38,820 bases of DNA, taken from the IMG/VR virus record IMGVR_UViG_2908572912_000003. One strand, written 5' to 3'. The position numbers and the translations under genes are program-made. The notes under the pieces are model-generated. The model ran no database searches, was not told the DNA's origin, and saw only the letters and a list, made by a program, of their open reading frames with translations. Shown here piece after piece: positions 1 through 11,784 of this stretch (position 1 is the first letter of the stretch; each line of letters starts with the position of its first letter). This DNA comes from a virus (Duplodnaviria > Heunggongvirae > Uroviricota > Caudoviricetes).

Positions 1-265
<265 letters not shown>

Positions 266-273
<8 letters not shown>

Positions 274-553
274 GCGTCCTGTCTCCCCGGTCTTTCTGCT
301 GGGCGAGAAAATCGCGGCACAGGCCTTTGGCTTTCAGCTCATTCAGCACAAAATCAATATCTTCATTCAGGTAGCTGAAAATATGCGGAATGTAGAGCTG
401 ATGCAGGCCGGAGAGTTCACGGTGAATCAAATCACCCCCAACAAACTGGGATACGGCGCTGGCGCGGTTGAGCTTATGGTAAGCCTCAATGCTGAGGTGT
501 TCACGGGCGTCATGACGCGCTGAGACGGTCTGAGGGGCTTTTTTATTACGCAC
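266..553 (-). CDS. Hypothetical small protein (95 aa) of the satellite leftward operon
   Basis: GTG start at 553-551 preceded by GGAGG at a 6-nt spacing; the start lies 5 nt upstream of the Icd-like stop, consistent with translational coupling; charged, protein-like composition. Confidence 0.45.
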
Positions 554-743
554 GGGACACCTCCACCACCGGCAGACGGGCAGCAAGGGAGAGCACATAG
601 TCACGGACAAGGGAACGGCGGGCACTGCGTTCATCACCGGCGACGGTGCGAAGCATGCAGATACGGGGATGACGGTCTGCGCGACGGACAGCCGCAAACA
701 CAAAGACAAATTCAGGGTGTGAGGGGGTAAGGGTTGTAGCCAT
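546..743 (-). CDS. icd: Host cell division inhibitor Icd-like protein (P1 Icd / P4 Kil-like)
   Basis: 65-aa [24 protein letters not shown]...; ATG at 743 preceded by AAGGAGG at an 8-nt spacing. The frame is open upstream to an ATG at 881 ([14 protein letters not shown]...), so a longer Ash-family product (546..881) is an alternative. Confidence 0.55.
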
Positions 744-1096
744 GATGGCAGCCTCCTTGAAGTAACAGTTACAGCTACCACTGGAGTTCCTACGCTCATG
801 GGTGGTAGCCCGGACGGGGGTAGGAATACCGGCCTTCAAGGAAACCGGCCAGCCCGAAGGCTGCCCCGCCCGGACCACCATTATCTGACAGAGGCTACGG
901 TTTAAAAAACACAGCCAGAAAAACAGGTGTGCCGAAGCAACGACGTAAAAAAAGACGCATGGCGCGTCATATGTCGCCTTGAAGTAACTCGGGTTCCTAC
1001 GCCCGGCTGCCGATTTTGCGGCAGCGGGAAAACTATATCCGCAAATGCCGGAAAAAGGCAAGCCAGAAAAAGGGACTTTTTGCAGGATGGGTATCA

Positions 1097-1363
1097 TCAC
1101 GCGTCGTACCCCCGTTTGCGTCCGGCAATGCGCCCGGCCATCCATGCGGTGACTTCAGAGTGCAGCCAGGCCACATTTTTACCGCCAAGACTCACCTGCG
1201 GCGGAAATTCCCCCTTACGGATGAGTTCATAGATGGTCGAGCGTGACAGGCCGCACAGGTGCATCACTTCCGGCAGACGTAAAAAACGCTCCTGCGTGAT
1301 GTCCGGCAGCGGCATCAGTGGCGTCACAGGGGCGGGAGACGGGGAAGAAAAAACAGCTTGCAT
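1097..1363 (-). CDS. alpA: AlpA-family phage transcriptional regulator (Vis/excisionase-like helix-turn-helix)
   Basis: 88-aa ORF containing ...[45 protein letters not shown]..., as recalled for AlpA/Vis-type regulators; ATG with GAGGT upstream. Confidence 0.8.
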
Positions 1364-1641
1364 CGGGCTACCTCGTTAATGTCCATACAGCACCGGATAA
1401 GTCCGTCCGGCTTCGGGTAGCGCTTTATTTTGTGAATATTTTCAGCAGACGCAACAGGGGGGATTTGTTCCGGCAGCCTTACAATGGCTGTGTGTTTTTT
1501 GCACATCAGCGCCAGATAGCTTTAAAACGCTCTGGAAGGAGCTGGAAAAAATTATAGTGAAATGCAAATTGTTTTTTCTTATTTATTTCAGTTAATTAAT
1601 AAAAATAAAAAGTAATAAACAGCACAAAAAGTCCATCCACG

Positions 1642-1746
1642 GGTGAACAGTGGTGAACAGACGGTGAACAGTCATTACTGCGATTGTTCACCCTTTAACT
1701 TACTGTATTACTTATCTTTTTTCTTAAGGTGAACAGAGGTGAACAG
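1642..1746. repeat. P4-type iteron cluster (ori/crr-like alpha-protein binding sites)
   Basis: Five direct copies of GGTGAACAG (1642-1671 and 1728-1746) plus one inverted copy (TGTTCACC at 1685-1692) in the AT-rich alpA-sid intergenic region; the core matches the recalled P4 type I iteron TGTTCACC. Confidence 0.6.
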
Positions 1747-1824
1747 TAAAATATAAAAAAACAAACAGTAAGCCGGTTTTTCCTGCGACCTTTTCCTGGC
1801 TTGCCGGTCTGAGGATGAGTCTCC

Positions 1825-1842
1825 TGTGTCAGGGCTGGCACA
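1825..1842 (+). promoter_or_regulatory. Putative Ogr/Delta activator site (TGT-N12-ACA) of the sid late promoter
   Basis: TGT gtcagggctggc ACA dyad lies about 80 bp upstream of the sid ATG, which would place the start site near 1888 if centred at -55; a TCACAAT -10-like element follows. Confidence 0.4.
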
Positions 1843-1914
1843 TCTGCAATGCGTCGTGTTGTTGTCCGGTGTACGTCACAATTTTCTTAACCTGAAGTGA
1901 CGAGGAGCCGGAAA

Positions 1915-2649
1915 ATGTCTGACAACACCATCCCTGAATATCTGCAACCCGCGCTGGCACAACTGGAAAAGGCCAGAGCCGCCCATCTTGAGAACGCCCG
2001 CCTGATGGATGAGACCGTCACGGCCATTGAACGGGCAGAGCAGGAAAAAAATGAGCTGGCGCAGGCCGACGGAAACGACGCTGACGACTGGCGCACGGCC
2101 TTTCGTGCAGCCGGTGGTGTCCTGAGCGACGAGCTGAAACAGCGCCACATTGAGCGCGTGGCACGCCGGGAGCTGGTACAGGAATATGACAATCTGGCCG
2201 TGGTGCTGAATTTTGAACGTGAACGCCTGAAAGGGGCGTGTGACAGCACGGCCACCGCCTACCGGAAGGCACATCATCACCTGCTGAGTCTGTATGCAGA
2301 GCATGAGCTGGAACACGCCCTGAATGAAACCTGTGAGGCGCTTGTCCGGGCAATGCATCTGAGCATCCTGGTACAGGAAAATCCGCTCGCCAACACCACC
2401 GGCCATCAGGGCTACGTCGCGCCGGAAAAGGCTGTCATGCAGCAGGTGAAATCATCGCTGGAACAGAAAATAAAACAGATGCAAATCAGCCTCACCGGCG
2501 AGCCGGTTCTCCGGCTGACCGGACTGTCAGCGGCAACACTCCCGCACATGGATTATGAGGTGGCAGGCACACCGGCACAGCGCAAGGTGTGGCAGGACAA
2601 AATAGACCAGCAGGCAGCAGAGCTGAAGGCCAGAGGGCTGCTGTCATGA
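1915..2649 (+). CDS. sid: Capsid size determination protein Sid (P4-like external scaffold)
   Basis: 244-aa ORF, matching the recalled P4 Sid length; ATG at 1915 with GAGGAG at an 8-nt spacing; stop overlaps the delta start (ATGA); sid-delta-psu order. Confidence 0.7.
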   Translation: MSDNTIPEYLQPALAQLEKARAAHLENARLMDETVTAIERAEQEKNELAQADGNDADDWRTAFRAAGGVLSDELKQRHIERVARRELVQEYDNLAVVLNFERERLKGACDSTATAYRKAHHHLLSLYAEHELEHALNETCEALVRAMHLSILVQENPLANTTGHQGYVAPEKAVMQQVKSSLEQKIKQMQISLTGEPVLRLTGLSAATLPHMDYEVAGTPAQRKVWQDKIDQQAAELKARGLLS

Positions 2650-3146
2650 TTTACTGCCCGTCGTGTGGACATGTTGCTCACACCCGTCGCGCACATTTCA
2701 TGGACGATGGCACCAAGATAATGATTGCACAGTGCCGGAATATTTATTGCTCTGCGACATTTGAAGCGAGTGAAAGCTTTTTCTCTGACTGTAAAGATTC
2801 AGGAATGGAATACATTTCAGGCAAACAGAGATACCGCGATTCACTGACGTCAGCCTCCGGCAGCATGAAACGCCCGAAAAGAATGCTTGTTACCGGATAT
2901 TGTTGTCGGAGATGTAAAGGCCTTGCACTGTCAAGAACATCGCGGCGTCTGTCTCAGGAAGTCACCGAGCGTTTTTATGTGTGCACGGATCCGGGCTGTG
3001 GTCTGGTGTTTAAAACGCTTCAGACCATCAACCGCTTCATTGTCCGCCCGGTCACGCCGGACGAACTGGCAGAAAGCCTGCATGAAAAACAGGAACTGCC
3101 GCCAGTACGCTTAAAAACACAATCATATTCGCTGCGTCTGGAATGA
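2646..3146 (+). CDS. delta: Late gene activator Delta (tandem Ogr-like zinc-finger domains)
   Basis: 166 aa with two Ogr-type zinc-finger modules (MIYCPSCGH...CRNIYC and YCCRRCKG...YVCTDPGCG). Confidence 0.85.
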   Translation: MIYCPSCGHVAHTRRAHFMDDGTKIMIAQCRNIYCSATFEASESFFSDCKDSGMEYISGKQRYRDSLTSASGSMKRPKRMLVTGYCCRRCKGLALSRTSRRLSQEVTERFYVCTDPGCGLVFKTLQTINRFIVRPVTPDELAESLHEKQELPPVRLKTQSYSLRLE

Positions 3147-3219
3147 GGGCTGCCGGTTAACACCGGCCGTCGCCGCACACCGTATTTTTATTCTTCAGCA
3201 TGATGAGAAAGAGATAACG

Positions 3220-3792
3220 ATGGAAAGCACAGCCTTACAGCAGGCCTTTGACACCTGTCAGAATAACAAAGCAGCATGGCTGCAACGCAAAAATGAGCTG
3301 GCAGCGGCCGAACAGGAATATCTGCGGCTTCTGTCAGGAGAAGGCAGAAACGTCAGTCGCCTGGACGAATTACGCAATATTATCGAAGTCAGAAAATGGC
3401 AGGTGAATCAGGCCGCCGGTCGTTATATTCGTTCGCATGAAGCCGTTCAGCACATCAGCATCCGCGACCGGCTGAATGATTTTATGCAGCAGCACGGCAC
3501 AGCACTGGCGGCGGCACTGGCACCGGAGCTGATGGGCTACAGTGAGCTGACGGCCATTGCCCGAAACTGTGCCATACAGCGTGCCACAGATGCCCTGCGT
3601 GAAGCCCTTCTGTCCTGGCTTGCGAAGGGGGAAAAAATTAATTATTCCGCACAGGATAGCGACATTTTAACGACCATCGGATTCAGGCCTGACGCGGCTT
3701 CGGTGGACGACAGCCGTGAAAAATTCACCCCTGCGCAGAACATGATTTTTTCGCGTAAAAGTGCGCAACTGGCATCACGTCAGTCTGTGTAA
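3220..3792 (+). CDS. psu: Polarity suppression protein Psu (capsid decoration / Rho antagonist)
   Basis: 190 aa, matching the recalled P4 Psu length; sits immediately after delta and before the cos-like site. Confidence 0.8.
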   Translation: MESTALQQAFDTCQNNKAAWLQRKNELAAAEQEYLRLLSGEGRNVSRLDELRNIIEVRKWQVNQAAGRYIRSHEAVQHISIRDRLNDFMQQHGTALAAALAPELMGYSELTAIARNCAIQRATDALREALLSWLAKGEKINYSAQDSDILTTIGFRPDAASVDDSREKFTPAQNMIFSRKSAQLASRQSV

Positions 3793-3828
3793 AATTTCCC
3801 GAAAATCCGCCTGTTTTTACTGAAAAAA

Positions 3829-3853
3829 GCCATGCATCGATAAGGTGCATGGC
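3829..3853 (+). terminator. Possible terminator hairpin after psu
   Basis: GCCATGCA...TGCATGGC inverted repeat followed by TTT; the U-tract is weak. Confidence 0.3.
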
Positions 3854-3956
3854 TTTGCATGCGTTTCCCTGCCTCATTTTCTGCAGACCGCGCCATTCCC
3901 GGCGCGGTCTGAGCGTGTCAGTGCAACTGCATTAAAACCGCCCCGCAAAGCGGGCG

Positions 3957-3975
3957 GGCGTGGCGGGGAGAGCAT
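3957..3975. other. P2/P4-type cohesive end (cos) site, variant
   Basis: GGCGTGGCGGGGAGAGCAT matches the recalled 19-nt P2/P4 cos GGCGAGGCGGGGAAAGCAC at 16 of 19 positions and lies downstream of psu as in P4. Confidence 0.4.
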
Positions 3976-4136: not shown

Positions 4137-6368
4137 TCATAAAAGTATTGGCCCTTTATTAAAATCATTGGTTTTGAAGTTTATTTCAAAGTGTTTGTAT
4201 ATTCGAGCCGGTTTTTCAGCAAAAAGTTCGTTTGCAGTTACGATGAATGCCGGGATATCCAGTTCTTTAGCATTAAGATACTCTATTGTTTTAATGATTC
4301 GCTCATCCTCCTTGCTGAGGAGACATGAAAACATAATAAAGTCACAATTCACCAGTGCGGCTATCTTGAGAAGTTCGTCGATTTGCTTGGTGCTGAATGT
4401 AGCATTAGACTTGCATTCGCATAGGCCCAATTTATGACCAATCTTCACAAAAACATCGATGTCAGATATTAGTTTTGTTTCTTTAAATACTTCATAGTTG
4501 GATTCATAACTAAAATGGTTATAGCCTTGTTTATTAATGTAATTTATTAATAATAAAGTGGCTAATTGACCTTGGTCTACCGCGCGGGCTACTAGTTGAT
4601 TTAACTTATAGTGGTCGTTTAGTACTTTCCCGTTATCGAATAAAGGTATGTTAATCACGTTCCCACATTCGACGCAGTGGTTTATCCGTTGTAAGGTTTC
4701 CAAGGGAAACCATAGCATTGCTGAACAATGCTCACATTGGAAATGCTTCCCTCTTAATAAAATGTTTGCATTATATAAGTTTTGCAACTTCCCTTGGTAG
4801 AGTGCGGGTGATGTGTTTTTGTCTTTTAATTTATTCTCTATGGTTTCCATAGGAATAATGGTGGATGATAACGATATGTCGCCTCGCTCTTTTAGAGTGC
4901 CAATGTGAGAAATTAAGTCATCGTGTGAAATATTATCTTCAAGATTAGGAAATGCCTTTTTAACAAGTCGTTCTGTCCTTGTATGCGGGGTCAGCGATAC
5001 CAATAAATCAAATATTTTTTTGTCGCTAATTAATTTAGCGTTATCAACTCCGCCGAGTAGTTGTATTAATTGCTCTAAAATAAACGTTTTTGCTGTTTGC
5101 TTTAATGTGAGACTATAATGGTGAAAATGTGAGTGTAGTAAATCAACAAATGAAGGTAGTTTGAATGTTTCAGTTATTCCTGATGTGCTGTAAGGAGAGA
5201 AATGTTTGAAGTACTTGGATAACCCCTTCTTGGATAAGCGTGTAAAGTGGTGCGAAAACATTGAGTTATCTACGAGGTTATCAGAAAAACAATGGCCTAA
5301 AAAATATTTTTTGGGATAGGATAGTTCTGCTGGCCCTCTAACTTCAAAAACAAATCCTCCTCCAAAACCTATATCAGCGAATGTCTTTTCATTAGGGTGA
5401 GTTAGGGTTTTGATGTCTGATGGGTCTGTGAGATATTGGTTATGTTCAAAATTGGTCCATCTTTCTTTATTACTTGGGAAGTAGTATTTGTCAGCAATAA
5501 TATATTCATTGCTTGAAAGGTTAGACGGTAATTTATTTATTTCGTTTTCATTGCTTACGACCAATATGGTTTCATTAGATATTATCTCTCCATATCTCTC
5601 AATTTCTTCAAGCGGCAACCAAGCTAATTTGGCATAGTTATAGCTGTTTCTGGTGTTCCAAAAGTAAAGAATGAAATTGAAGTCAGACGAGTGTGAGATA
5701 AACAGATAATCCTTGTCTTTATCTGCAAAAAAACCTTTATTATTATGGTTTTTGTCATAGATACTTGATGATGTATATGCAGAGCCTATAGCGTTGGTTA
5801 AATTGTGATATTTTGTTTTGTTTTCGAATATATTTGATTTTATTTTATTAGGGTCGGCGATGCATGAAATGGTTACATCTTGAAAAATTGATGGCATTCT
5901 CTTTAAGTGGACATAGTTTCTTTTATCTATTACACCAAAGTTTAAAGCGAGGAATAACGAGTTGGCAGTATATTCAATATTTGATGATGCATAAACTTTA
6001 CTAGGTATTAATGTTGGGTCTTTTGTGGCTAAATAAGGAGTGCTAGAGAACGTAAAAATTGGAGAGCAAAAGTTTAGTAAATTATAGTTAGTTGACTTGG
6101 AATTGTAAGTTATAGCATTAAAGAATTCTGAAATGGTTTCATCTTCAAGGTTTGAATAGTTGAGTACAACATCAGGATCATAGCTATCAACAAGTGTCTT
6201 GTTTATTTCTGAAAGCAATGAATTATCATTTTTTAAAATTAAATTTAGGATGCCATCAATATCTTGCATTAACGACATGAATATTGATAGGAATATTTCA
6301 TGATCATCTTCGATGATAAACAACTTTCGAATGGGACGGACTTTGGTTGTAACAAATGAATTATACAC
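4137..6368 (-). CDS. Large uncharacterised cargo protein (743 aa) with a C-terminal zinc ribbon and PD-(D/E)xK-like nuclease motifs; candidate anti-phage defence protein
   Basis: Uninterrupted 2.2-kb ORF, visibly AT-rich against GC-richer flanks; GTG start at 6368 with AAGGAA upstream, 25 bp downstream of the integrase stop; CEHC (4725-4736) and CVEC (4665-4676) cysteine pairs; DIDVFV followed by ECK (4410-4418). No Walker A motif seen. Confidence 0.75.
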   Translation of the reverse strand: MYNSFVTTKVRPIRKLFIIEDDHEIFLSIFMSLMQDIDGILNLILKNDNSLLSEINKTLVDSYDPDVVLNYSNLEDETISEFFNAITYNSKSTNYNLLNFCSPIFTFSSTPYLATKDPTLIPSKVYASSNIEYTANSLFLALNFGVIDKRNYVHLKRMPSIFQDVTISCIADPNKIKSNIFENKTKYHNLTNAIGSAYTSSSIYDKNHNNKGFFADKDKDYLFISHSSDFNFILYFWNTRNSYNYAKLAWLPLEEIERYGEIISNETILVVSNENEINKLPSNLSSNEYIIADKYYFPSNKERWTNFEHNQYLTDPSDIKTLTHPNEKTFADIGFGGGFVFEVRGPAELSYPKKYFLGHCFSDNLVDNSMFSHHFTRLSKKGLSKYFKHFSPYSTSGITETFKLPSFVDLLHSHFHHYSLTLKQTAKTFILEQLIQLLGGVDNAKLISDKKIFDLLVSLTPHTRTERLVKKAFPNLEDNISHDDLISHIGTLKERGDISLSSTIIPMETIENKLKDKNTSPALYQGKLQNLYNANILLRGKHFQCEHCSAMLWFPLETLQRINHCVECGNVINIPLFDNGKVLNDHYKLNQLVARAVDQGQLATLLLINYINKQGYNHFSYESNYEVFKETKLISDIDVFVKIGHKLGLCECKSNATFSTKQIDELLKIAALVNCDFIMFSCLLSKEDERIIKTIEYLNAKELDIPAFIVTANELFAEKPARIYKHFEINFKTNDFNKGPILL

Positions 6369-6393: not shown

Positions 6394-7596
6394 TTAATTA
6401 CTGGCTGATAGTGACTTAACGTAATTCCCCCACCAACTCATTAGCTCTATCCTTTGTTCTAAATAAATTGAACGATTATAAGCTCTACGTACTTCATTTT
6501 TATCTGTGTGCGCTAATGCTGACTCTATGACATCCGCATTCATCCCCGCTTCATTCATCGCTGTACTCGCAATAGACCTTAAACCATGAGCAACAAGCTT
6601 TCCACCATATCCAATTCTCTTCAGCGCAGCATTAGCCGTCTGGCTATTCATTGGTTGCTTTGGGTCATTCCTGCTCGGAAAAACGTGCTCTCGATTGGCA
6701 CTAATAGGTTTCATCACTTCGAGAATCTCTAATGCCTGAGTTGAGAGAGGAACTATGTGCTCACGTTTAGCCTTCATTCGTTCGGCCGGAATCGTCCATA
6801 GCTTTGTTTCGAGATCGATTTCAGCCCACCGAGCACCGGAGGCCTCAGAAGGGCGCACAAGGGTCAGGAGTTGCCATTCGATTAGACAGCGAGTCGGAAC
6901 AGACAGATTTGACATGACTAAAGAACGCATCAGCTTCGGCAATTCTTCTGGCCGCAACGTCGGCATGTTTTGCTTTTTGGGCTTCTCAAAGGCCATGCCA
7001 ACACCGGATGCTGGATTGGCATCAATCAGACCAGTGTTTACGGCATAAATCATGATTTCGTTAATACGCTGCACCAGTCGACGTACAGTCTCAAGCGCCC
7101 CACGTGCTTTTATTGGCTCAAGGGCTTCAACCAAAGTTCGGGCTTTGATTTGCTGAACGGGGATCTCACCGATGGCAGGGAATACATCTTTCTCCAGTGA
7201 ACGCCAAATGTCTTTTGCGTAATCAGGGGTAACGCTTTTGCTTTTGAGATGGAACCAGTTAGCGGCGACCGTTGAAAAAATACTGTCCAGAGCGATTTGC
7301 TGCTGTTCCTCTGCAACTTCGGCCTGAATTTGTGGGTCAATTCCGTTGGCTAACAAGGCAAGGTAATCCGCTCTTAACCCTCGGGCGTCAGCAAGTGAAA
7401 GGGCGGGGAAAGCACCTAGCCCCATCATTGTCCGCTGTTTTGTCGCCGGACGTTGATAACGGAAACGCCAGAGCTTTTTCCCGCTGGTTTTCACTATCAG
7501 GAAAAGGCCATCGCCATCATGCAGCGTTAGATCCTTCTCTAACGCTTTAGCGCGCAGAACTTCGGTGTTGGTCAGGGGGCGTGTTGTCCGTGCCAC
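6394..7596 (-). CDS. int: P4-type tyrosine integrase
   Basis: 400 aa; N-terminal arm-binding region (GLFLIVKTSGKKLWRFRYQ) and C-terminal catalytic region (HGLRSIAST...AHTD...RAYNR); GTG start with AAGGAG upstream; adjacent to the att core. Confidence 0.9.
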   Translation of the reverse strand: MARTTRPLTNTEVLRAKALEKDLTLHDGDGLFLIVKTSGKKLWRFRYQRPATKQRTMMGLGAFPALSLADARGLRADYLALLANGIDPQIQAEVAEEQQQIALDSIFSTVAANWFHLKSKSVTPDYAKDIWRSLEKDVFPAIGEIPVQQIKARTLVEALEPIKARGALETVRRLVQRINEIMIYAVNTGLIDANPASGVGMAFEKPKKQNMPTLRPEELPKLMRSLVMSNLSVPTRCLIEWQLLTLVRPSEASGARWAEIDLETKLWTIPAERMKAKREHIVPLSTQALEILEVMKPISANREHVFPSRNDPKQPMNSQTANAALKRIGYGGKLVAHGLRSIASTAMNEAGMNADVIESALAHTDKNEVRRAYNRSIYLEQRIELMSWWGNYVKSLSASN

Positions 7597-7744: not shown

Positions 7745-7780
7745 TTTCTGTACTTCACTGGACGTATCCGGATCATGATT

Positions 7781-7808
7781 TGGTGGGCTGGCGGGAGTTG
7801 AACCCGCG
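7781..7808 (-). other. Attachment-site core: 3'-terminal 28 nt of a tmRNA (ssrA)-like gene, not a complete RNA gene
   Basis: Minus strand reads CGCGGGTTCAACTCCCGCCAGCCCACCA, nearly identical to the recalled E. coli ssrA 3' end (GCGGGTTCAACTCCCGCCAGCTCCACCA); the sequence 5' of it is AT-rich and not RNA-like. Confidence 0.55.
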
Positions 7809-7937
7809 TTCTATTAATGGTAAATAACTGTAATTTATAGCTTTTATTTGAAGTAGATCACATGCGTATCCTTTGTGGATACTTGAGGTATATGTTATAT
7901 ATAAAACATATATTTACATGAAGTAAATGGATGTTTT

Positions 7938-8561
7938 ATGACAATACAGGAAATAATTCAGCAACGTAATATTCGTAGCTTGTTTCATTTTACACATAGC
8001 GATAATCTAACTTCCATTTTAGATAATGGCCTTATGTCTCGTTCAGAACTTGATAATGAAAATAATGAATATAATTATAATGATGAAGAAAGGATTGATG
8101 GTCATCCAGATGCGATTTGTTTGTCCGTAAGTTACCCTAATGCAAAAATGTTTTATAAATATAGATGTTTAAAGCCTGGGGACTGGGTTATATTAGAAAT
8201 CAATCCATCTGTTCTTTGGGCTAAGGATTGCGCTTTTTATCCTACCAACGCAGCTTCGAATAACGTTCGTTTTATAAATCTTGATTTGATGAAAGGAGCT
8301 GAGGCATTTAGTGCTTTGTTTTCAGAGAATGTTTTTGGGATTCAGAGAGATGTAAACCTTCCAAGTGAGTATACGACGGATGTTCAAGCTGAAATACTGG
8401 TATTTGAAAAAATTCCTCCCTCATATATTATAAGCACTTTTCACCCTAACAAAGAATCTGCTGAACATTTCAAGAGATTATATCCACAGACAATACAGAG
8501 ATCTTATGATAATCTTAATGCTAGAACATTTTATTCTCAGAGGCATTATTATTTAGGATAA
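7938..8561 (+). CDS. DarT-like DNA ADP-ribosyltransferase toxin (DUF4433-like)
   Basis: 207 aa, AT-rich; N-terminal LFHFTHSDNLTSILDNGLMS resembles the recalled DarT NAD-binding motif; candidate catalytic Glu in AEILVFE near residue 150-155; a partner ORF follows 4 bp downstream. Confidence 0.5.
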   Translation: MTIQEIIQQRNIRSLFHFTHSDNLTSILDNGLMSRSELDNENNEYNYNDEERIDGHPDAICLSVSYPNAKMFYKYRCLKPGDWVILEINPSVLWAKDCAFYPTNAASNNVRFINLDLMKGAEAFSALFSENVFGIQRDVNLPSEYTTDVQAEILVFEKIPPSYIISTFHPNKESAEHFKRLYPQTIQRSYDNLNARTFYSQRHYYLG

Positions 8562-8564
8562 GTT

Positions 8565-9254
8565 ATGGCCGTTAGACCTGTTTTCGTCCCTACAAACGCA
8601 GGGAACTTACTATCGATCACGAAGGATGTGGATTTTCCTTGGGCTCCTGGTATGTCTAAAACGCAAAAGCAAAAATCGATCAGGGCGTTACATACAGCAG
8701 CGAATGAGCAGGGATTGAACTCTTTGTTGGAAATTTCTAGTAAATCCGAAGATGCGCTGGGGGTAGCACTTAGTGCATTTAATCTAAGAATAAAGACGAA
8801 AAGACTTGGGAAAGAGTTTACAGTTGAATCTGCATTTCAAGCAAGTAAAGTATTTGAAATGGGAGGACCATATGTCGATATCTTAGATAAAAGCTCGATA
8901 GAAGCAAAAAAAGATATGAGATTAAAGGAATCTGGGGGATTAGTTAACTTCAAATTTTATAATACAATATGGCCCATTGTCCCCAGGACTGCTTTTTATG
9001 ATTGGTTATATTTGAGTGCGCTCAATCAAAACAAAAATCTAGCACTCCATCTATTAAATTTTGATGGATTTACTGATATTGAATTTAATCCAGCGAAATC
9101 TATTAATTGCCAAGCCAGAGCAGCTGCACTTTTTGTCTCTTTAGTAAGACGAAATATGTTAGATGATGTTTTATCTTCAAAGGATGGTTTTTTATCAAAA
9201 TTAGCATCTCATTATGGTGTTGAAAATTATTCTATTCAACATACATTGATATGA
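8565..9254 (+). CDS. Partner of the DarT-like gene; possible NADAR (YbiA-like) domain antitoxin
   Basis: 229 aa with AGGA ribosome-binding site; LSAFNLRIKTKRLGKEFTVESAFQASKVF resembles the YbiA/NADAR segment FSNFAAWPIKVDGKTWPTSEHYFQAQKF; no macrodomain motifs (NAAN/GGGV) found. Confidence 0.4.
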   Translation: MAVRPVFVPTNAGNLLSITKDVDFPWAPGMSKTQKQKSIRALHTAANEQGLNSLLEISSKSEDALGVALSAFNLRIKTKRLGKEFTVESAFQASKVFEMGGPYVDILDKSSIEAKKDMRLKESGGLVNFKFYNTIWPIVPRTAFYDWLYLSALNQNKNLALHLLNFDGFTDIEFNPAKSINCQARAAALFVSLVRRNMLDDVLSSKDGFLSKLASHYGVENYSIQHTLI

Positions 9255-9256
9255 AT

Positions 9257-9280
9257 AATGGCCTGTAAAGGCCATTTTTA
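9257..9280. terminator. Bidirectional terminator between the convergent DarT-partner and integrase genes
   Basis: AATGGCC tgtaaa GGCCATT hairpin flanked by T-runs, filling the 32-bp gap between the two stop codons. Confidence 0.5.
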
Positions 9281-9286
9281 TCTAAA

Positions 9287-10456
9287 TTAATATCTATTTT
9301 TTCTATTTAAAGATGTATTTCCATCATATTCTTTGAGGTATGAGCCATAATGTCTAAATAACATCTCTGGTCCTTTATGACCCATTTGAACCGCAAGCCA
9401 AAACAGGTTTGCTCCCCGGCTGATATGGCTGGTGGCGAATGTATGTCTGGTTTGATATGGGTTTCTGTAACGAATACCTGCTTTCCGCAATGTTGGCACC
9501 CATGCTTTTTTTCTAATTGCATCAGCACTTGCCCAAGGCTTATTGGTCTTTGGATCTTCAAAGACTGTAGCATCCTTCATGAATGTAAATGGCTTCTGAT
9601 TTATCAGCGCCAACATTGCATCTTCTGTCAGTTCAACTTTACGAGTACCGGCTTTTGTCTTTGTTCCTTTGATAACACCGACAACACTTGCGCTCTGGAC
9701 ATGGGCAGTTTTTCCAACAAAGTCGATATCACGCCATCGAAGGGCACATAATTCAGAACTACGCAGGCCTGTATGTATAGCGAACCGGAACAGATTCTCC
9801 CATTGTTTGTTTCCGGCTGCTGCTAGTAATGCATCAACTTCTGCTGGTGATAGCGGATCAACCACGTAGCTGCTTTCTGCTTCTGACTTATCACTTTGGT
9901 AGCGCGAAGCAGTTACCAACGATACGGGGTTAATTTGAAGTACCCCATCGGTTACGGCTTCATCAAGTGCTGACCGCAGGAAAGATAACTGGTTGCGAAT
10001 TGTTTTTAAGGTCGTTTTCTGGCTTTGAATCCACGCTTTCAGGATTGCTGGTGTTAATTCACTTGCAGGGCAAATGTGGAGTGAGGCTAACGCACTACGG
10101 CATTTTTTATAACCACCAATCGTAGATGGTGAAAGTTTTCTCGTTTCGCAGATTTCAAGGTATTCGTCCAGGTACATTTTTACCGTTTTGCCTGCAGCAG
10201 CATTACCAAAAATTTTCAAACGAGCAGAACGGGGAAAATATTCCGCATAAATGAATGTTCCCCTTTCGATCTTATTATGAATTTCGCCGAGTGTGCGCTC
10301 GGCGTATTTAATGTTCTTTGGTGTTACTTCCAGATTGGAAAGAGGCTCACGACATCTAACTCCTTTGTAGGTGAAAGTTATATTGATCGTTTCGCCCTGG
10401 CGGTGTTTCCTGATTGTTACGCCGCGCGGTAGTTTGAGCAGTTTTGTCTGGCCCAT
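9287..10456 (-). CDS. int: Prophage tyrosine integrase
   Basis: 389 aa; catalytic region motifs (HTGLRSSELCALRW, HTFATSHI, GHKGPEMLFRHYGSY). Confidence 0.9.
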   Translation of the reverse strand: MGQTKLLKLPRGVTIRKHRQGETINITFTYKGVRCREPLSNLEVTPKNIKYAERTLGEIHNKIERGTFIYAEYFPRSARLKIFGNAAAGKTVKMYLDEYLEICETRKLSPSTIGGYKKCRSALASLHICPASELTPAILKAWIQSQKTTLKTIRNQLSFLRSALDEAVTDGVLQINPVSLVTASRYQSDKSEAESSYVVDPLSPAEVDALLAAAGNKQWENLFRFAIHTGLRSSELCALRWRDIDFVGKTAHVQSASVVGVIKGTKTKAGTRKVELTEDAMLALINQKPFTFMKDATVFEDPKTNKPWASADAIRKKAWVPTLRKAGIRYRNPYQTRHTFATSHISRGANLFWLAVQMGHKGPEMLFRHYGSYLKEYDGNTSLNRKNRY

Positions 10457-10623
10457 TTTGCAACCTCACTAAGATCAATCCACCTCTCCTTAACGCCTTC
10501 AACCTTTAAAACCTGAACACCTTCACGCCAAACACCGCGCTGTACACGTTTGTTTATTGCTTCAGGAGTTTCGCCAGTTTCTTTGCAATAAGTTGAGATT
10601 GGAACACAATCGAGGTTCAGCAT
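10417..10623 (-). CDS. xis: Excisionase-like protein
   Basis: 68-aa ORF immediately upstream of and overlapping the integrase; ATG at 10623 with GGAG upstream; a GTG at 10635 is an alternative start. Confidence 0.45.
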   Translation of the reverse strand: MLNLDCVPISTYCKETGETPEAINKRVQRGVWREGVQVLKVEGVKERWIDLSEVAKWARQNCSNYRAA

Positions 10624-10682
10624 ATGTTTCTCCACTTAGCCCGCTGCACACGGGCAGTAATATCAAATTCCAGTCCTGATAA

Positions 10683-10898
10683 TTAATTTTGTTCCCTGGT
10701 TGCTACCTGTTTTATTGGCCTGATGCTGTCCAGTAGCAGACGGCGACGCATGTTAGGTGCCCCCCAACGGTAACCAGTCTTTTTGTCGTAGGATTCACAA
10801 CGTCCGGCAACCCAGGACGTTTCAGTGGAATGTAATTTCATCCGCTTTTCACCGTCTCGGGTGATAACAATTCCTGTATGAGTTTTTATCACGCTCAT
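10683..10898 (-). CDS. Hypothetical phage early protein
   Basis: 71-aa ORF; ATG overlaps the stop of the upstream gene (ATGA). Confidence 0.45.
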   Translation of the reverse strand: MSVIKTHTGIVITRDGEKRMKLHSTETSWVAGRCESYDKKTGYRWGAPNMRRRLLLDSIRPIKQVATREQN

Positions 10899-11257
10899 TT
10901 CTTAGTCTCTGGTGCTTTCGGCATTACTGCCCAGTGAGTGATATTGACGTTTTCAAGGTCCCCGACCTGAAATGTCCACTGCCATTCTCCGGTTTCTTTT
11001 TGCCCCCAGGTGTACCAGAGAGAACGCCAGCCAATTAGCCAGCCTTCTCCGTTAGCATCGAATAACAAAACACTTTCATTTGCTGGTGGCAGTTCAGTTG
11101 ACACTGGTATTGCTTTGTTTTCCTGTGCTGCACATTTAGCTTCAAGCGCATCGAATTTGCGCACCAGGTATTCAGCATCTGTTTCATTCACTTTCAGATC
11201 TCGCGGTACACATCTCCCACGAAGAAACCCTTCCATTTCGAAAACATTCATGCACAT
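10895..11257 (-). CDS. Hypothetical phage protein with Trp-rich C-terminus (DUF551-like)
   Basis: 120-aa ORF in an operonic chain with its neighbours; C-terminal GWRSLWYTWGQKETGEWQW segment. Confidence 0.45.
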   Translation of the reverse strand: MCMNVFEMEGFLRGRCVPRDLKVNETDAEYLVRKFDALEAKCAAQENKAIPVSTELPPANESVLLFDANGEGWLIGWRSLWYTWGQKETGEWQWTFQVGDLENVNITHWAVMPKAPETKK

Positions 11258-11784
11258 TTGCGTAACTCCGATAACTCGTTAAAACGTTCCATAAACATCC
11301 CGTAGGCATGGCCCGGTGCCAGTGGAATCACGTTGAACATCTCTGTTGCGGGGATGCCTTCCAGTACAGGCCAGAAAGAGCCATCATCAAGCCCGAGATC
11401 GCGGCGTTCGGTTGCCAGCATGATGAGATCGGCATATTTCACAGGCGTGCTCATAACCGGGGGTAACCCGTATTTCTCACGGATTACGGCGTCTATTTTT
11501 TCTTCCATCCGTTTATAGTCAGGAAGAAGGCGTTTCAGTGGCGCGGGGATGTCCTGACAATAAGCTTCTGTTGCATCATGCATTAACGCTTCAAAAGCAA
11601 ATTCCTGCGGCACCAACTGGCTGCAAAGAACCGCATGTTGGGCGACGCTGTAGAAGTGCGAAAGATGACCGGCAAAGCGACAGATATTTGAAAGGGAAAC
11701 CGCGATATCGTTAATATCGATGTCGTCTTTATTTATCCTGTCATAATAAAAATGCTTCCCGGAAAAAGTTTTAATAAATGACAT
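11248..11784 (-). CDS. HD-domain phosphohydrolase (YfbR-like 5'-deoxynucleotidase family)
   Basis: His...HD metal-binding pattern (SVAQHAVL...ALMHDATEAY); ATG at 11784 with GGAG upstream (the longer ORF from 11811 starts with GTG). Confidence 0.6.
   Translation of the reverse strand: MSFIKTFSGKHFYYDRINKDDIDINDIAVSLSNICRFAGHLSHFYSVAQHAVLCSQLVPQEFAFEALMHDATEAYCQDIPAPLKRLLPDYKRMEEKIDAVIREKYGLPPVMSTPVKYADLIMLATERRDLGLDDGSFWPVLEGIPATEMFNVIPLAPGHAYGMFMERFNELSELRKCA

What the first reader, a model, noticed from the sequence alone, without database searches (positions are those of the whole stretch)
1560..1900. Satellite control region: iteron cluster between divergent operons and a Delta-type site
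Six GGTGAACAG-family repeats (five direct, one inverted) lie in the AT-rich interval between the leftward alpA operon and rightward sid, about 150 bp from a TGT-N12-ACA dyad upstream of sid. In P4 these repeats would be alpha-protein binding sites of ori/crr. Their placement inside the divergent promoter region suggests coupling of replication-protein binding to late and early transcription.
Basis: partly seen in the sequence, partly recalled or inferred. Interest (0 to 1): 0.45.

Follow-up and report, generated by a model that had tools for sequence, protein, structure and literature searches.

The report
Phage P4 replication origin, orphaned copy
The repeat cluster is the well-known replication origin of satellite phage P4 next to its known late-promoter activator site, almost base-for-base identical to P4, so it is ordinary, and in this copy the replication gene and second origin element that it needs are missing from the window.

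Summary
Six GGTGAACA(G) repeats lie at 1642, 1652, 1663, 1684-1692 (inverted), 1728 and 1738, in AT-rich DNA between vis/alpA and sid. A TGT-N12-ACA dyad lies at 1825-1842.

It is not new. Window 163-3956 is 97% identical to phage P4. The six repeats align one-to-one with the six "ori type 1 repeat" features inside the annotated P4 origin, and 1640-1920 differs from P4 by one base. Sixteen distant satellites (Sid 58-67% identical) from at least eight genera keep the iterons (consensus RGTGAAYAGT) and the dyad at near-constant offsets from sid.

- Both flanking promoters are late, Ogr/Delta-type (PLL dyad 1466-1483; Psid dyads 1825-1842 and 1863-1880). The early promoter lies beyond vis.
- The iterons lie well upstream of both promoters, and nothing supports coupling of replication-protein binding to transcription.
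- This copy is orphaned. P4 homology is broken at base 163 by an internal IS5-family fragment, and the window holds no alpha, cnr or crr.

Side observation: P4's "type 2 repeats", which are P2 Cox boxes, are replaced here by a common alternative allele. Other genera carry phage-186 Apl-like TGGCAA repeats at that position.

The parts
1642..1650 (+). type-1 iteron 1 (GGTGAACAG)
   Evidence: aligns with the P4 'ori type 1 repeat' at 9310-9317
1652..1660 (+). type-1 iteron 2
   Evidence: P4 9320-9327
1663..1671 (+). type-1 iteron 3
   Evidence: P4 9331-9338
1684..1692 (-). type-1 iteron 4, inverted (TTGTTCACC on the + strand); forms an 11-bp inverted repeat with iteron 3
   Evidence: (repeat I7); P4 9353-9360
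1728..1736 (+). type-1 iteron 5
   Evidence: P4 9396-9403
1738..1746 (+). type-1 iteron 6
   Evidence: P4 9406-9413
1561..1640 (.). AT-rich tract (21% GC) left of the iterons; the sequence is poorly conserved (0.68 mean column identity); candidate unwinding region (inferred)
1693..1727 (.). conserved AT-rich spacer between iterons 4 and 5 (CTTTAACTTACTGTATTACTTATCTTTTTTCTTAA)
   Evidence: 0.85 mean column identity across 16 satellites
1825..1842 (.). Ogr/Delta dyad TGT-N12-ACA of Psid (the -55-type site)
   Evidence: identical to P4; present in all 16 distant satellites; consensus from PMC3931495
1863..1880 (.). second TGT-N12-ACA dyad, 38 bp downstream of the first and overlapping the core Psid promoter; an exact match only in close relatives of P4
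1466..1483 (.). TGT-N12-ACA dyad of the leftward late promoter PLL
   Evidence: present in P4 at the same offset
1502..1556 (.). variable patch that replaces P4's three 'ori type 2 repeats', which are P2 Cox boxes; no Cox box is present here
1097..1363 (-). vis/alpA (ORF88), first gene of the PLL operon
   Evidence: Pfam Phage_AlpA; 87/88 residues identical to P4 Vis
1915..2649 (+). sid (capsid-size scaffold)
2646..3146 (+). delta (two Ogr/Delta zinc-finger units), the activator that reads the dyads
   Evidence: Pfam PF04606, two matched stretches
3220..3792 (+). psu
   Evidence: Pfam Psu
1..162 (+). internal fragment of an IS5-family (ISKpn26-like) transposase gene, cut about 300 bp before the IS end; marks the break in P4 collinearity
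163..273 (-). remnant of orf151 (first 40 codons); the alpha, cnr and crr that should follow are absent

Best explanation
Window 1419-1914 is the P4-type origin of replication (ori), embedded between the two divergent late promoters PLL (leftward, vis operon) and Psid (rightward, sid-delta-psu).

How it works in an intact P4-like satellite:
- The alpha protein has a DnaG-type primase domain, an SF3 helicase domain and a C-terminal winged-helix origin-binding domain. It binds the six TGTTCACC/GGTGAACA iterons here and the same octamers in crr, a second element required in cis about 4.5-5 kb away beyond the alpha gene.
- Alpha then opens the adjacent AT-rich DNA and primes replication.
- Separately, Delta (or the helper's Ogr) binds the TGT-N12-ACA dyads and switches on Psid and PLL.

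In this window the origin and the late operon are intact. The replication module (alpha, cnr, crr) has been cut away at base 163, where an internal IS5-family fragment is fused to orf151. The origin is therefore most likely a non-functional relic of a decaying satellite integrated at ssrA.

What is shown: sequence identity with the annotated P4 ori, the iteron arrangement, conservation across genera, and the absence of alpha and crr from the window. What is taken from established knowledge or inferred: alpha binding, DNA opening, the cis requirement for crr, and the promoter start sites.
For: - Window 163-3956 matches P4 7785-11624 at 97% identity.
- The six repeats coincide with the six annotated 'ori type 1 repeat' features inside the rep_origin feature 9086-9809. 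Only one mismatch separates window 1640-1920 from P4.
- The cluster is far beyond chance.
- In 16 satellites from Scandinavium, Enterobacter, Mangrovibacter, Citrobacter, Klebsiella, Raoultella, Buttiauxella and others (Sid 58-67% identical), the six iterons keep their order, orientation and offsets (-272, -262, -251, -229 inverted, -186, -176 from the sid ATG). The consensus is RGTGAAYAGT. Column identity is 0.92-0.99 in the iterons against 0.68-0.86 in the flanks.
- Complete satellites have a second iteron cluster (crr) beyond alpha, 4.3-6.7 kb upstream of sid. An intact close relative in E. coli R1 has alpha and crr.
- Alpha is 74-84% identical overall, and 75-93% in its C-terminal domain, in those satellites.
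- The alpha domain organisation comes from PMC2777425. crr as 'cis required region for replication' comes from the GenBank note and a 2026 bioRxiv preprint on engineering P4 satellite particles.
- The dyad consensus for Ogr-dependent promoters comes from PMC3931495. delta is present with two Ogr/Delta units.
- tblastn and blastn find no alpha, orf106 or crr in the window. The IS5 junction is shown.
Against: - No experiment on this copy exists.
- I could not see the DNA to the left of the window, so an alpha/crr segment displaced beyond the IS fragment cannot be excluded.
- The primary papers on alpha-iteron binding and Delta footprints are not held in the library. Those mechanistic steps rest on database annotation, secondary citations and my own knowledge.
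- The PLL and Psid start sites are inferred from the -55 rule, not mapped here.
Confidence: 0.9

Rival explanations
1. One reading: alpha bound to the iterons also regulates PLL and/or Psid, by looping, by topology or by contact with Delta, so that replication and late transcription are tied together.
For: The iterons and the Psid dyad form a rigid block. The distance from iteron 1 to the dyad is 179-183 bp in all satellites examined, and the DNA between them is well conserved (0.85-0.86 column identity). By contrast, the side towards PLL varies in sequence and length. The origin lies between divergent promoters, where transcription would introduce negative supercoiling (inference only).
Against: From inferred start sites, the iterons lie about 143-247 bp upstream of the Psid start and about 220-325 bp upstream of the PLL start, outside both the activator sites and the core promoters. 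A constant spacing is equally expected from dense functional packing. The regulators of these promoters that I know of or retrieved are Delta/Ogr, the helper's Cox (PMC3936717) and Vis (own knowledge); no retrieved source names alpha. This copy encodes no alpha at all.
Confidence: 0.07
2. The origin is still used: alpha supplied in trans by another P4-like satellite in the same genome fires this origin despite the local loss of alpha and crr.
For: The iterons are identical to those of P4. E. coli genomes hold up to four copies of this region. Alpha's origin-binding domain is highly conserved among E. coli elements.
Against: crr is described as required in cis (GenBank note; preprint), and no second iteron cluster exists anywhere in the 38.8-kb window.
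Confidence: 0.08
3. The cluster is crr, or an unrelated repeat or operator array, rather than ori.
For: The same octamer builds crr in P4.
Against: crr lies beyond the 3' end of alpha, as two 120-bp direct repeats with a different iteron order. This cluster has the ori arrangement (3 direct, 1 inverted, 2 direct), the ori position between vis and sid, and near-identity to the P4 ori. Rfam finds no RNA family here.
Confidence: 0.01

Closest known systems
Phage P4 origin of replication (ori; X51522/NC_001609, 9086-9809, with six type-1 repeats at 9310-9413)
   Same: Position between ORF88/vis and sid. Six TGTTCACC octamers in the same order, orientation and spacing. One base different over 280 bp.
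   Different: The three 'type 2 repeats' at the left edge (P4 9176-9205) are replaced by unrelated sequence. The cognate alpha and crr are not linked to this copy in the window.
P4 crr (cis replication region, 4291-4590)
   Same: Built from the same octamer, so it is presumably bound by the same protein.
   Different: crr consists of two 120-bp direct repeats with five octamers each, and lies next to attP and the 3' end of alpha. No such cluster is in the window.
Ogr/Delta-dependent late promoters of P2 and P4 (P2 PP, PO, PV, PF; P4 Psid and PLL)
   Same: TGT-N12-ACA dyad upstream of a weak core promoter. The activator gene delta is encoded just downstream.
   Different: Psid here, as in P4, carries two dyads 38 bp apart. 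The second is an exact match only in close relatives of P4.
Iteron origins of plasmids and of other phage satellites (my own knowledge: for example pSC101, R6K and P1 oriR; SaPI/PICI ori)
   Same: Short direct repeats that bind the element's own initiator, placed next to AT-rich DNA.
   Different: The initiator is a single primase-helicase-origin-binding polypeptide (PMC2777425), and a second distant iteron cluster is needed in cis.

Membership tests
P4-type origin (ori) | Six TGTTCACC type-1 octamers arranged as 3 direct, 1 inverted and 2 direct | tested here: met
P4-type origin (ori) | Location between vis/ORF88 (PLL) and sid (Psid), with sequence homology to P4 9086-9809 | tested here: met
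P4-type origin (ori) | Cognate alpha primase-helicase with a C-terminal origin-binding domain encoded by the same element | tested here: not met
   tblastn with P4 alpha finds nothing in the window. P4 homology stops at base 163. DNA to the left of the window was not available.
P4-type origin (ori) | A second iteron cluster (crr) in cis | tested here: not met
   Only two isolated octamers occur elsewhere in the window. crr is present in P4, in E. coli R1 and in 11 of the 12 other satellite loci scanned (no cluster was detected in L015).
P4-type origin (ori) | Alpha binds the iterons and replication starts here | not testable with these tools
   Needs EMSA or footprinting and a replication assay.
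Ogr/Delta-activated late promoter (Psid) | TGT-N12-ACA dyad upstream of the promoter | tested here: met
   1825-1842; conserved in 16 distant satellites. The position at about -55 is inferred from a putative -10 element, CACAAT, at 1877-1882.
Ogr/Delta-activated late promoter (Psid) | An Ogr/Delta zinc-finger activator is available | tested here: met
   delta at 2646-3146, Pfam PF04606 with two matched stretches
Ogr/Delta-activated late promoter (Psid) | Activator-dependent transcription | not testable with these tools
   Needs promoter mapping or reporter assays.
P4-like satellite (core set: int, psu, delta, sid, alpA, epsilon, alpha; PMC8628076) | All seven core components present in the conserved order | tested here: not met
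   Six of seven are present: int 6394-7596, psu, delta, sid, alpA, epsilon. alpha is absent. By that scheme this is an incomplete variant.
P2 Cox operator upstream of PLL (P4 'type 2 repeats') | Tandem Cox boxes TTAAA(G/C)NC(A/C) at 10-11 bp spacing | tested here: not met
   P4 has Cox boxes at 9180, 9190 and 9200. The window has none, only one reverse-orientation match with one mismatch, which is the background rate. Consensus from PMC3936717 and PMC5009727.

The most novel reading that the evidence does not exclude
The vis-sid control region may be modular. One part is a rigid, conserved block: ori plus Psid. Next to it lies a swappable cassette, P4's 'type 2 repeats', that holds operators for the helper phage's excisionase-regulator. 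This cassette would decide which helper can derepress PLL.

Evidence for three kinds of cassette:
- P4 carries P2 Cox boxes there.
- Satellites of Klebsiella, Raoultella, Enterobacter and Citrobacter carry 3-4 phased TGGCAA repeats at that position. These look like the Apl operators of phage 186.
- The window carries a third common allele (372 E. coli complete genomes) whose ligand is unknown.

Probability: 0.35. Interest if true: 0.45.

Novelty: already known. Interest (0 to 1): 0.12.

Why it matters
As a finding it adds nothing to P4 biology. The iterons, the origin and the Delta/Ogr site have been annotated in the P4 GenBank record for decades, and the same region occurs in about a fifth of the complete E. 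coli genomes searched (1069 of 5426).

It is useful in three ways:
- As annotation: it marks a P4-like satellite remnant at ssrA that keeps its immunity region, late operon and cos but has lost its replication module.
- As comparative evidence: the ori-Psid block is one of the most conserved non-coding parts of P4-like satellites across Enterobacterales.
- As a lead: the neighbouring variable patch could give a handle on helper specificity if the cassette idea holds.

Tried and rejected
- Phage Wphi Cox operator as the ligand site for the window's patch allele. The best ungapped match was 12 of 16, and 77 of 300 shuffles did as well. Rejected as chance.
- blastn of the patch (1490-1570) against 50,697 phage records gave only chance hits (E >= 0.7) in unrelated phages.
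- Linkage between cos type and patch type. E. coli R1 has the window's patch allele but a P2-type cos. Satellites with Apl-like patches carry either cos type. No linkage.
- Search for the IS5/orf151 junction, to see what lies to the left of the window. No complete E. coli genome covers it. Exact 30-mer scans of IMG/VR and JGI metagenomes found nothing.
- Literature. The primary P4 replication and Delta papers are not held. The searches returned noise. in particular found no paper in the library linking P4-like satellites to Apl or Cox operator diversity.
- RNA gene or terminator reading of the region. Rfam has no hit in 1364-1914. The terminator-like hairpin at 1663-1692 is simply iterons 3 and 4 in inverted orientation.
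- A strict scan for phased TGGCAA clusters elsewhere in the satellites, as a test of a Vis-site rival, found none. The same strict pattern also misses phage 186's own degenerate Apl operators, so this test is uninformative.

Full report
**1. What is in the sequence**

- Exact GGTGAACAG occurs at 1642, 1652, 1663, 1728 and 1738 on the + strand. An inverted copy lies at 1684-1692 (TTGTTCACC as read on the + strand).
- The octamer GGTGAACA/TGTTCACC occurs only twice more in the 38,820-base window (23325, 28455). Six copies in 105 bp is therefore far beyond chance: 0.005 expected, Poisson P about 1e-16. No shuffle reached the total count.
- The interval is AT-rich: 21% GC for 1561-1640 and 31% for 1560-1775, against 49% overall.
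- A TGT-N12-ACA dyad lies at 1825-1842. As a bare pattern it is not enriched in the window (11 seen, 9.6 expected).
- Three of the 11 copies fall within the 551-bp spacer between vis and sid: 1466-1483, 1825-1842 and 1863-1880.

**2. What it is**

- megablast against phage records shows window 163-3956 matching phage P4 (X51522/NC_001609) 7785-11624 at 97% identity.
- The P4 record annotates "origin of DNA replication" at 9086-9809, with six "ori type 1 repeat" features at 9310-9413 and three "ori type 2 repeat" features at 9176-9205.
- In the pairwise alignment the six window repeats coincide one-to-one with the six type-1 repeats. From window 1640 to the sid start codon there is a single mismatch.
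- The flanking genes are the P4 genes:
  - vis/ORF88 at 1097-1363 (-), 87 of 88 residues identical to P4, Pfam AlpA;
  - sid at 1915-2649;
  - delta at 2646-3146, with two Ogr/Delta zinc-finger units;
  - psu at 3220-3792.
- Rfam places the P4 immunity RNA (family C4) at 798-885, and its targets and isrK at 948-1038, all on the - strand.
- A sigma-70-like site at 1061-1032 (-) fits the early promoter PLE.
- The finding is therefore the P4 ori, sitting between the divergent late promoters PLL and Psid.

**3. Conservation**

- A Sid alignment retrieved 20 loci from GTDB species genomes. One of them (L005) is nearly identical to P4.
- Sixteen distant satellites (Sid 58-67% identical) had enough upstream sequence. 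They come from Scandinavium, Enterobacter, Mangrovibacter, Citrobacter, Klebsiella, Raoultella, Buttiauxella and a genome record titled Vagococcus sp.
- In these satellites the iterons keep their number, orientation and offsets from the sid ATG: about -272, -262, -251, -229 (inverted), -186 and -176. The dyad lies at -85 to -93 in every one.
- Over 96 iterons the consensus is RGTGAAYAGT. Positions 3-6 and 8 are invariant, and position 2 is G in 95 of 96.
- Mean column identity is 0.92-0.99 in the iterons. It is 0.68 in the left AT-rich tract and 0.76-0.86 elsewhere.
- The region is common: blastn finds it in 1069 of 5426 complete E. coli genomes, always on chromosomes.

**4. How it works**

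- Alpha combines a DnaG-type primase, an SF3 helicase and a C-terminal winged-helix DNA-binding domain (PMC2777425).
[quoted passage not shown] 1993, as cited in PMC8628076).
- crr is the "cis required region for replication" (GenBank note; a 2026 bioRxiv preprint on engineering P4 satellite particles).
- TGT-N12-ACA is the consensus of Ogr-dependent P2 late promoters (PMC3931495).

From my own knowledge of the P4 literature, not retrievable here:
- Alpha binds the type-1 octamers in both ori and crr.
- Delta footprints at about -55 on Psid and PLL, with a second site near -18.
- Vis represses PLL and stimulates Psid.

How the sequence fits:
- The two Psid dyads are 38 bp apart.
- Placing the first dyad at -55 puts the transcription start near 1889, after a CACAAT -10 element at 1877-1882.
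- The same rule puts the PLL start near 1420-1428.
- These start sites are inferred, not mapped.

Supporting data from complete satellites:
- They carry a second iteron cluster (crr) beyond alpha, 4.3-6.7 kb upstream of sid.
- Their alpha is 74-84% identical to P4 alpha overall, and 75-93% in the C-terminal domain. That is clearly more conserved than Sid, as expected for a protein that reads an almost invariant iteron.

**5. This copy is orphaned**

- P4 homology begins abruptly at base 163, inside orf151; only the first 40 codons remain.
- Bases 1-162 are an internal piece of an IS5-family (ISKpn26-like) transposase gene, cut about 300 bp short of the IS end. This is a deletion or rearrangement joint, not a simple insertion.
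- tblastn with P4 alpha and ORF106/cnr, and blastn with the whole P4 genome, find neither gene and no crr in the window. There is no second iteron cluster.
- A 98.8% identical relative in E. coli R1, integrated at ssrA, shows what is missing: alpha, DUF5375/cnr, orf151 and a crr cluster.
- On the other side, the window keeps cos (3957-3975), a 743-residue hotspot gene, an integrase (6394-7596, 36% identical to P4 Int) and about 30 bp of the ssrA 3' end.
- Since crr is needed in cis and alpha is absent, the origin is most likely a relic. I could not read the DNA to the left of the window, and the junction was not found in any collection searched.

**6. The coupling idea**

- The leftward promoter next to the origin is the late promoter PLL, not an early one.
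- From the inferred start sites, the iterons lie about 143-247 bp from the Psid start and about 220-325 bp from the PLL start, outside the core promoters and the activator sites.
- In favour of the idea, the distance from the iterons to the Psid dyad is nearly constant (179-183 bp), while the PLL side varies. Dense packing explains that equally well.
- No retrieved source reports alpha acting on these promoters. I rate the idea at about 0.07.

**7. A side observation just outside the given coordinates**

- The only strongly divergent stretch between the window and P4 is 1502-1556. It replaces P4's three "type 2 repeats".
- Those P4 repeats are three tandem matches (two exact, one with a single mismatch) to the P2 Cox-box consensus TTAAA(G/C)NC(A/C), 10 bp apart.
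- P2 Cox binds upstream of PLL to derepress P4, and Wphi Cox does not activate P4 (PMC3936717 and PMC5009727).
- The window has no Cox boxes there. Its allele is common: 372 complete E. coli genomes, against 439 for the P4 allele.
- In most of the distant satellites the same position holds 3-4 TGGCAA-type repeats about 10-11 bp apart. This is the same motif and spacing as the annotated Apl operators of phage 186.
- This suggests a swappable helper-sensing cassette. The ligand for the window's allele is unidentified:
  - a match to the Wphi Cox repeat is at chance level;
  - no phage record resembles the patch;
  - the cos type does not track the patch type.

**8. Verdict**

The finding is real and correctly recognised as P4-like, but it is the textbook P4 origin and Psid activator site. 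It is already known and of low interest. The mechanistic extrapolation (coupling) is unsupported, and in this copy the origin has lost the genes and the cis partner it needs.

Noticed in passing
window 1-273: An internal fragment of an IS5-family (ISKpn26-like) transposase gene is fused at base 162/163 to codon 40 of P4 orf151, with 3-4 nt of microhomology (GCA). The satellite's alpha, cnr and crr are missing from the window. This junction is absent from 5,426 complete E. coli genomes, from IMG/VR and from JGI metagenomes.
   Followed up: yes
window 1502-1556 (P4 9169-9223); L006-L024 at about -415 to -360 from sid: P4's 'ori type 2 repeats' are three P2 Cox boxes. The window carries a different, common allele without Cox boxes (372 E. 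coli genomes, against 439 for the P4 allele). Satellites of other genera carry phased TGGCAA repeats there, like the Apl operators of phage 186. This may be a swappable helper-sensing cassette upstream of PLL.
   Followed up: partly
window 3957-3975: The cos cohesive-end 19-mer is GGCGTGGCGGGGAGAGCAT. It has three differences from P2/P4/Wphi (GGCGAGGCGGGGAAAGCAC) and one from phage 186, and it is identical to the cos of several non-E. coli satellites. Homology to P4 ends exactly here, although psu just upstream is P4-like.
   Followed up: partly
window 4137-6368 (-): A 743-residue, low-GC ORF lies in the psu-int defence hotspot and has no Pfam, PADLOC or NCBIfam hit. By eye, its C-terminus has a CxxC...CxxC zinc-ribbon motif followed by a D...ExK (PD-(D/E)xK-like) motif. 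Relatives of this satellite carry NACHT, SIR2 or ABC-three-component genes at this position.
   Followed up: partly
window 7780-10456: About 30 bp of the ssrA 3' end (att core) follows the satellite's integrase, but no tmRNA gene is in the window. Next come a DarT toxin (7938-8561) with its NADAR antitoxin (8565-9254), a second integrase (9287-10456, -) and a lambdoid prophage. This looks like a tandem array of elements at ssrA.
   Followed up: partly
window 798-1038 (-): Rfam places C4 antisense RNA (the P4 CI immunity RNA, 86 bits), isrK and the c4 a1/b1 target family here. The immunity region of the remnant therefore looks intact.
   Followed up: no
window 1778-1798: A direct repeat TTTTCCTG occurs twice, 13 bp apart, between the last iteron and the Psid dyad. 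It sits in a block that is well conserved across genera (TTTTCCTGAGACCTTTCTCTGGC). Its function is unknown to me; it could be a regulator site such as a Vis site.
   Followed up: no
L006-L023 (iterons and alpha C-terminus): Satellites whose iterons mostly start with G (GGTGAACAG) have alpha C-terminal domains 90-93% identical to P4. Those with several AGTGAACAG iterons have 75-79%. This hints at co-variation between iteron position 1 and the origin-binding domain.
   Followed up: no
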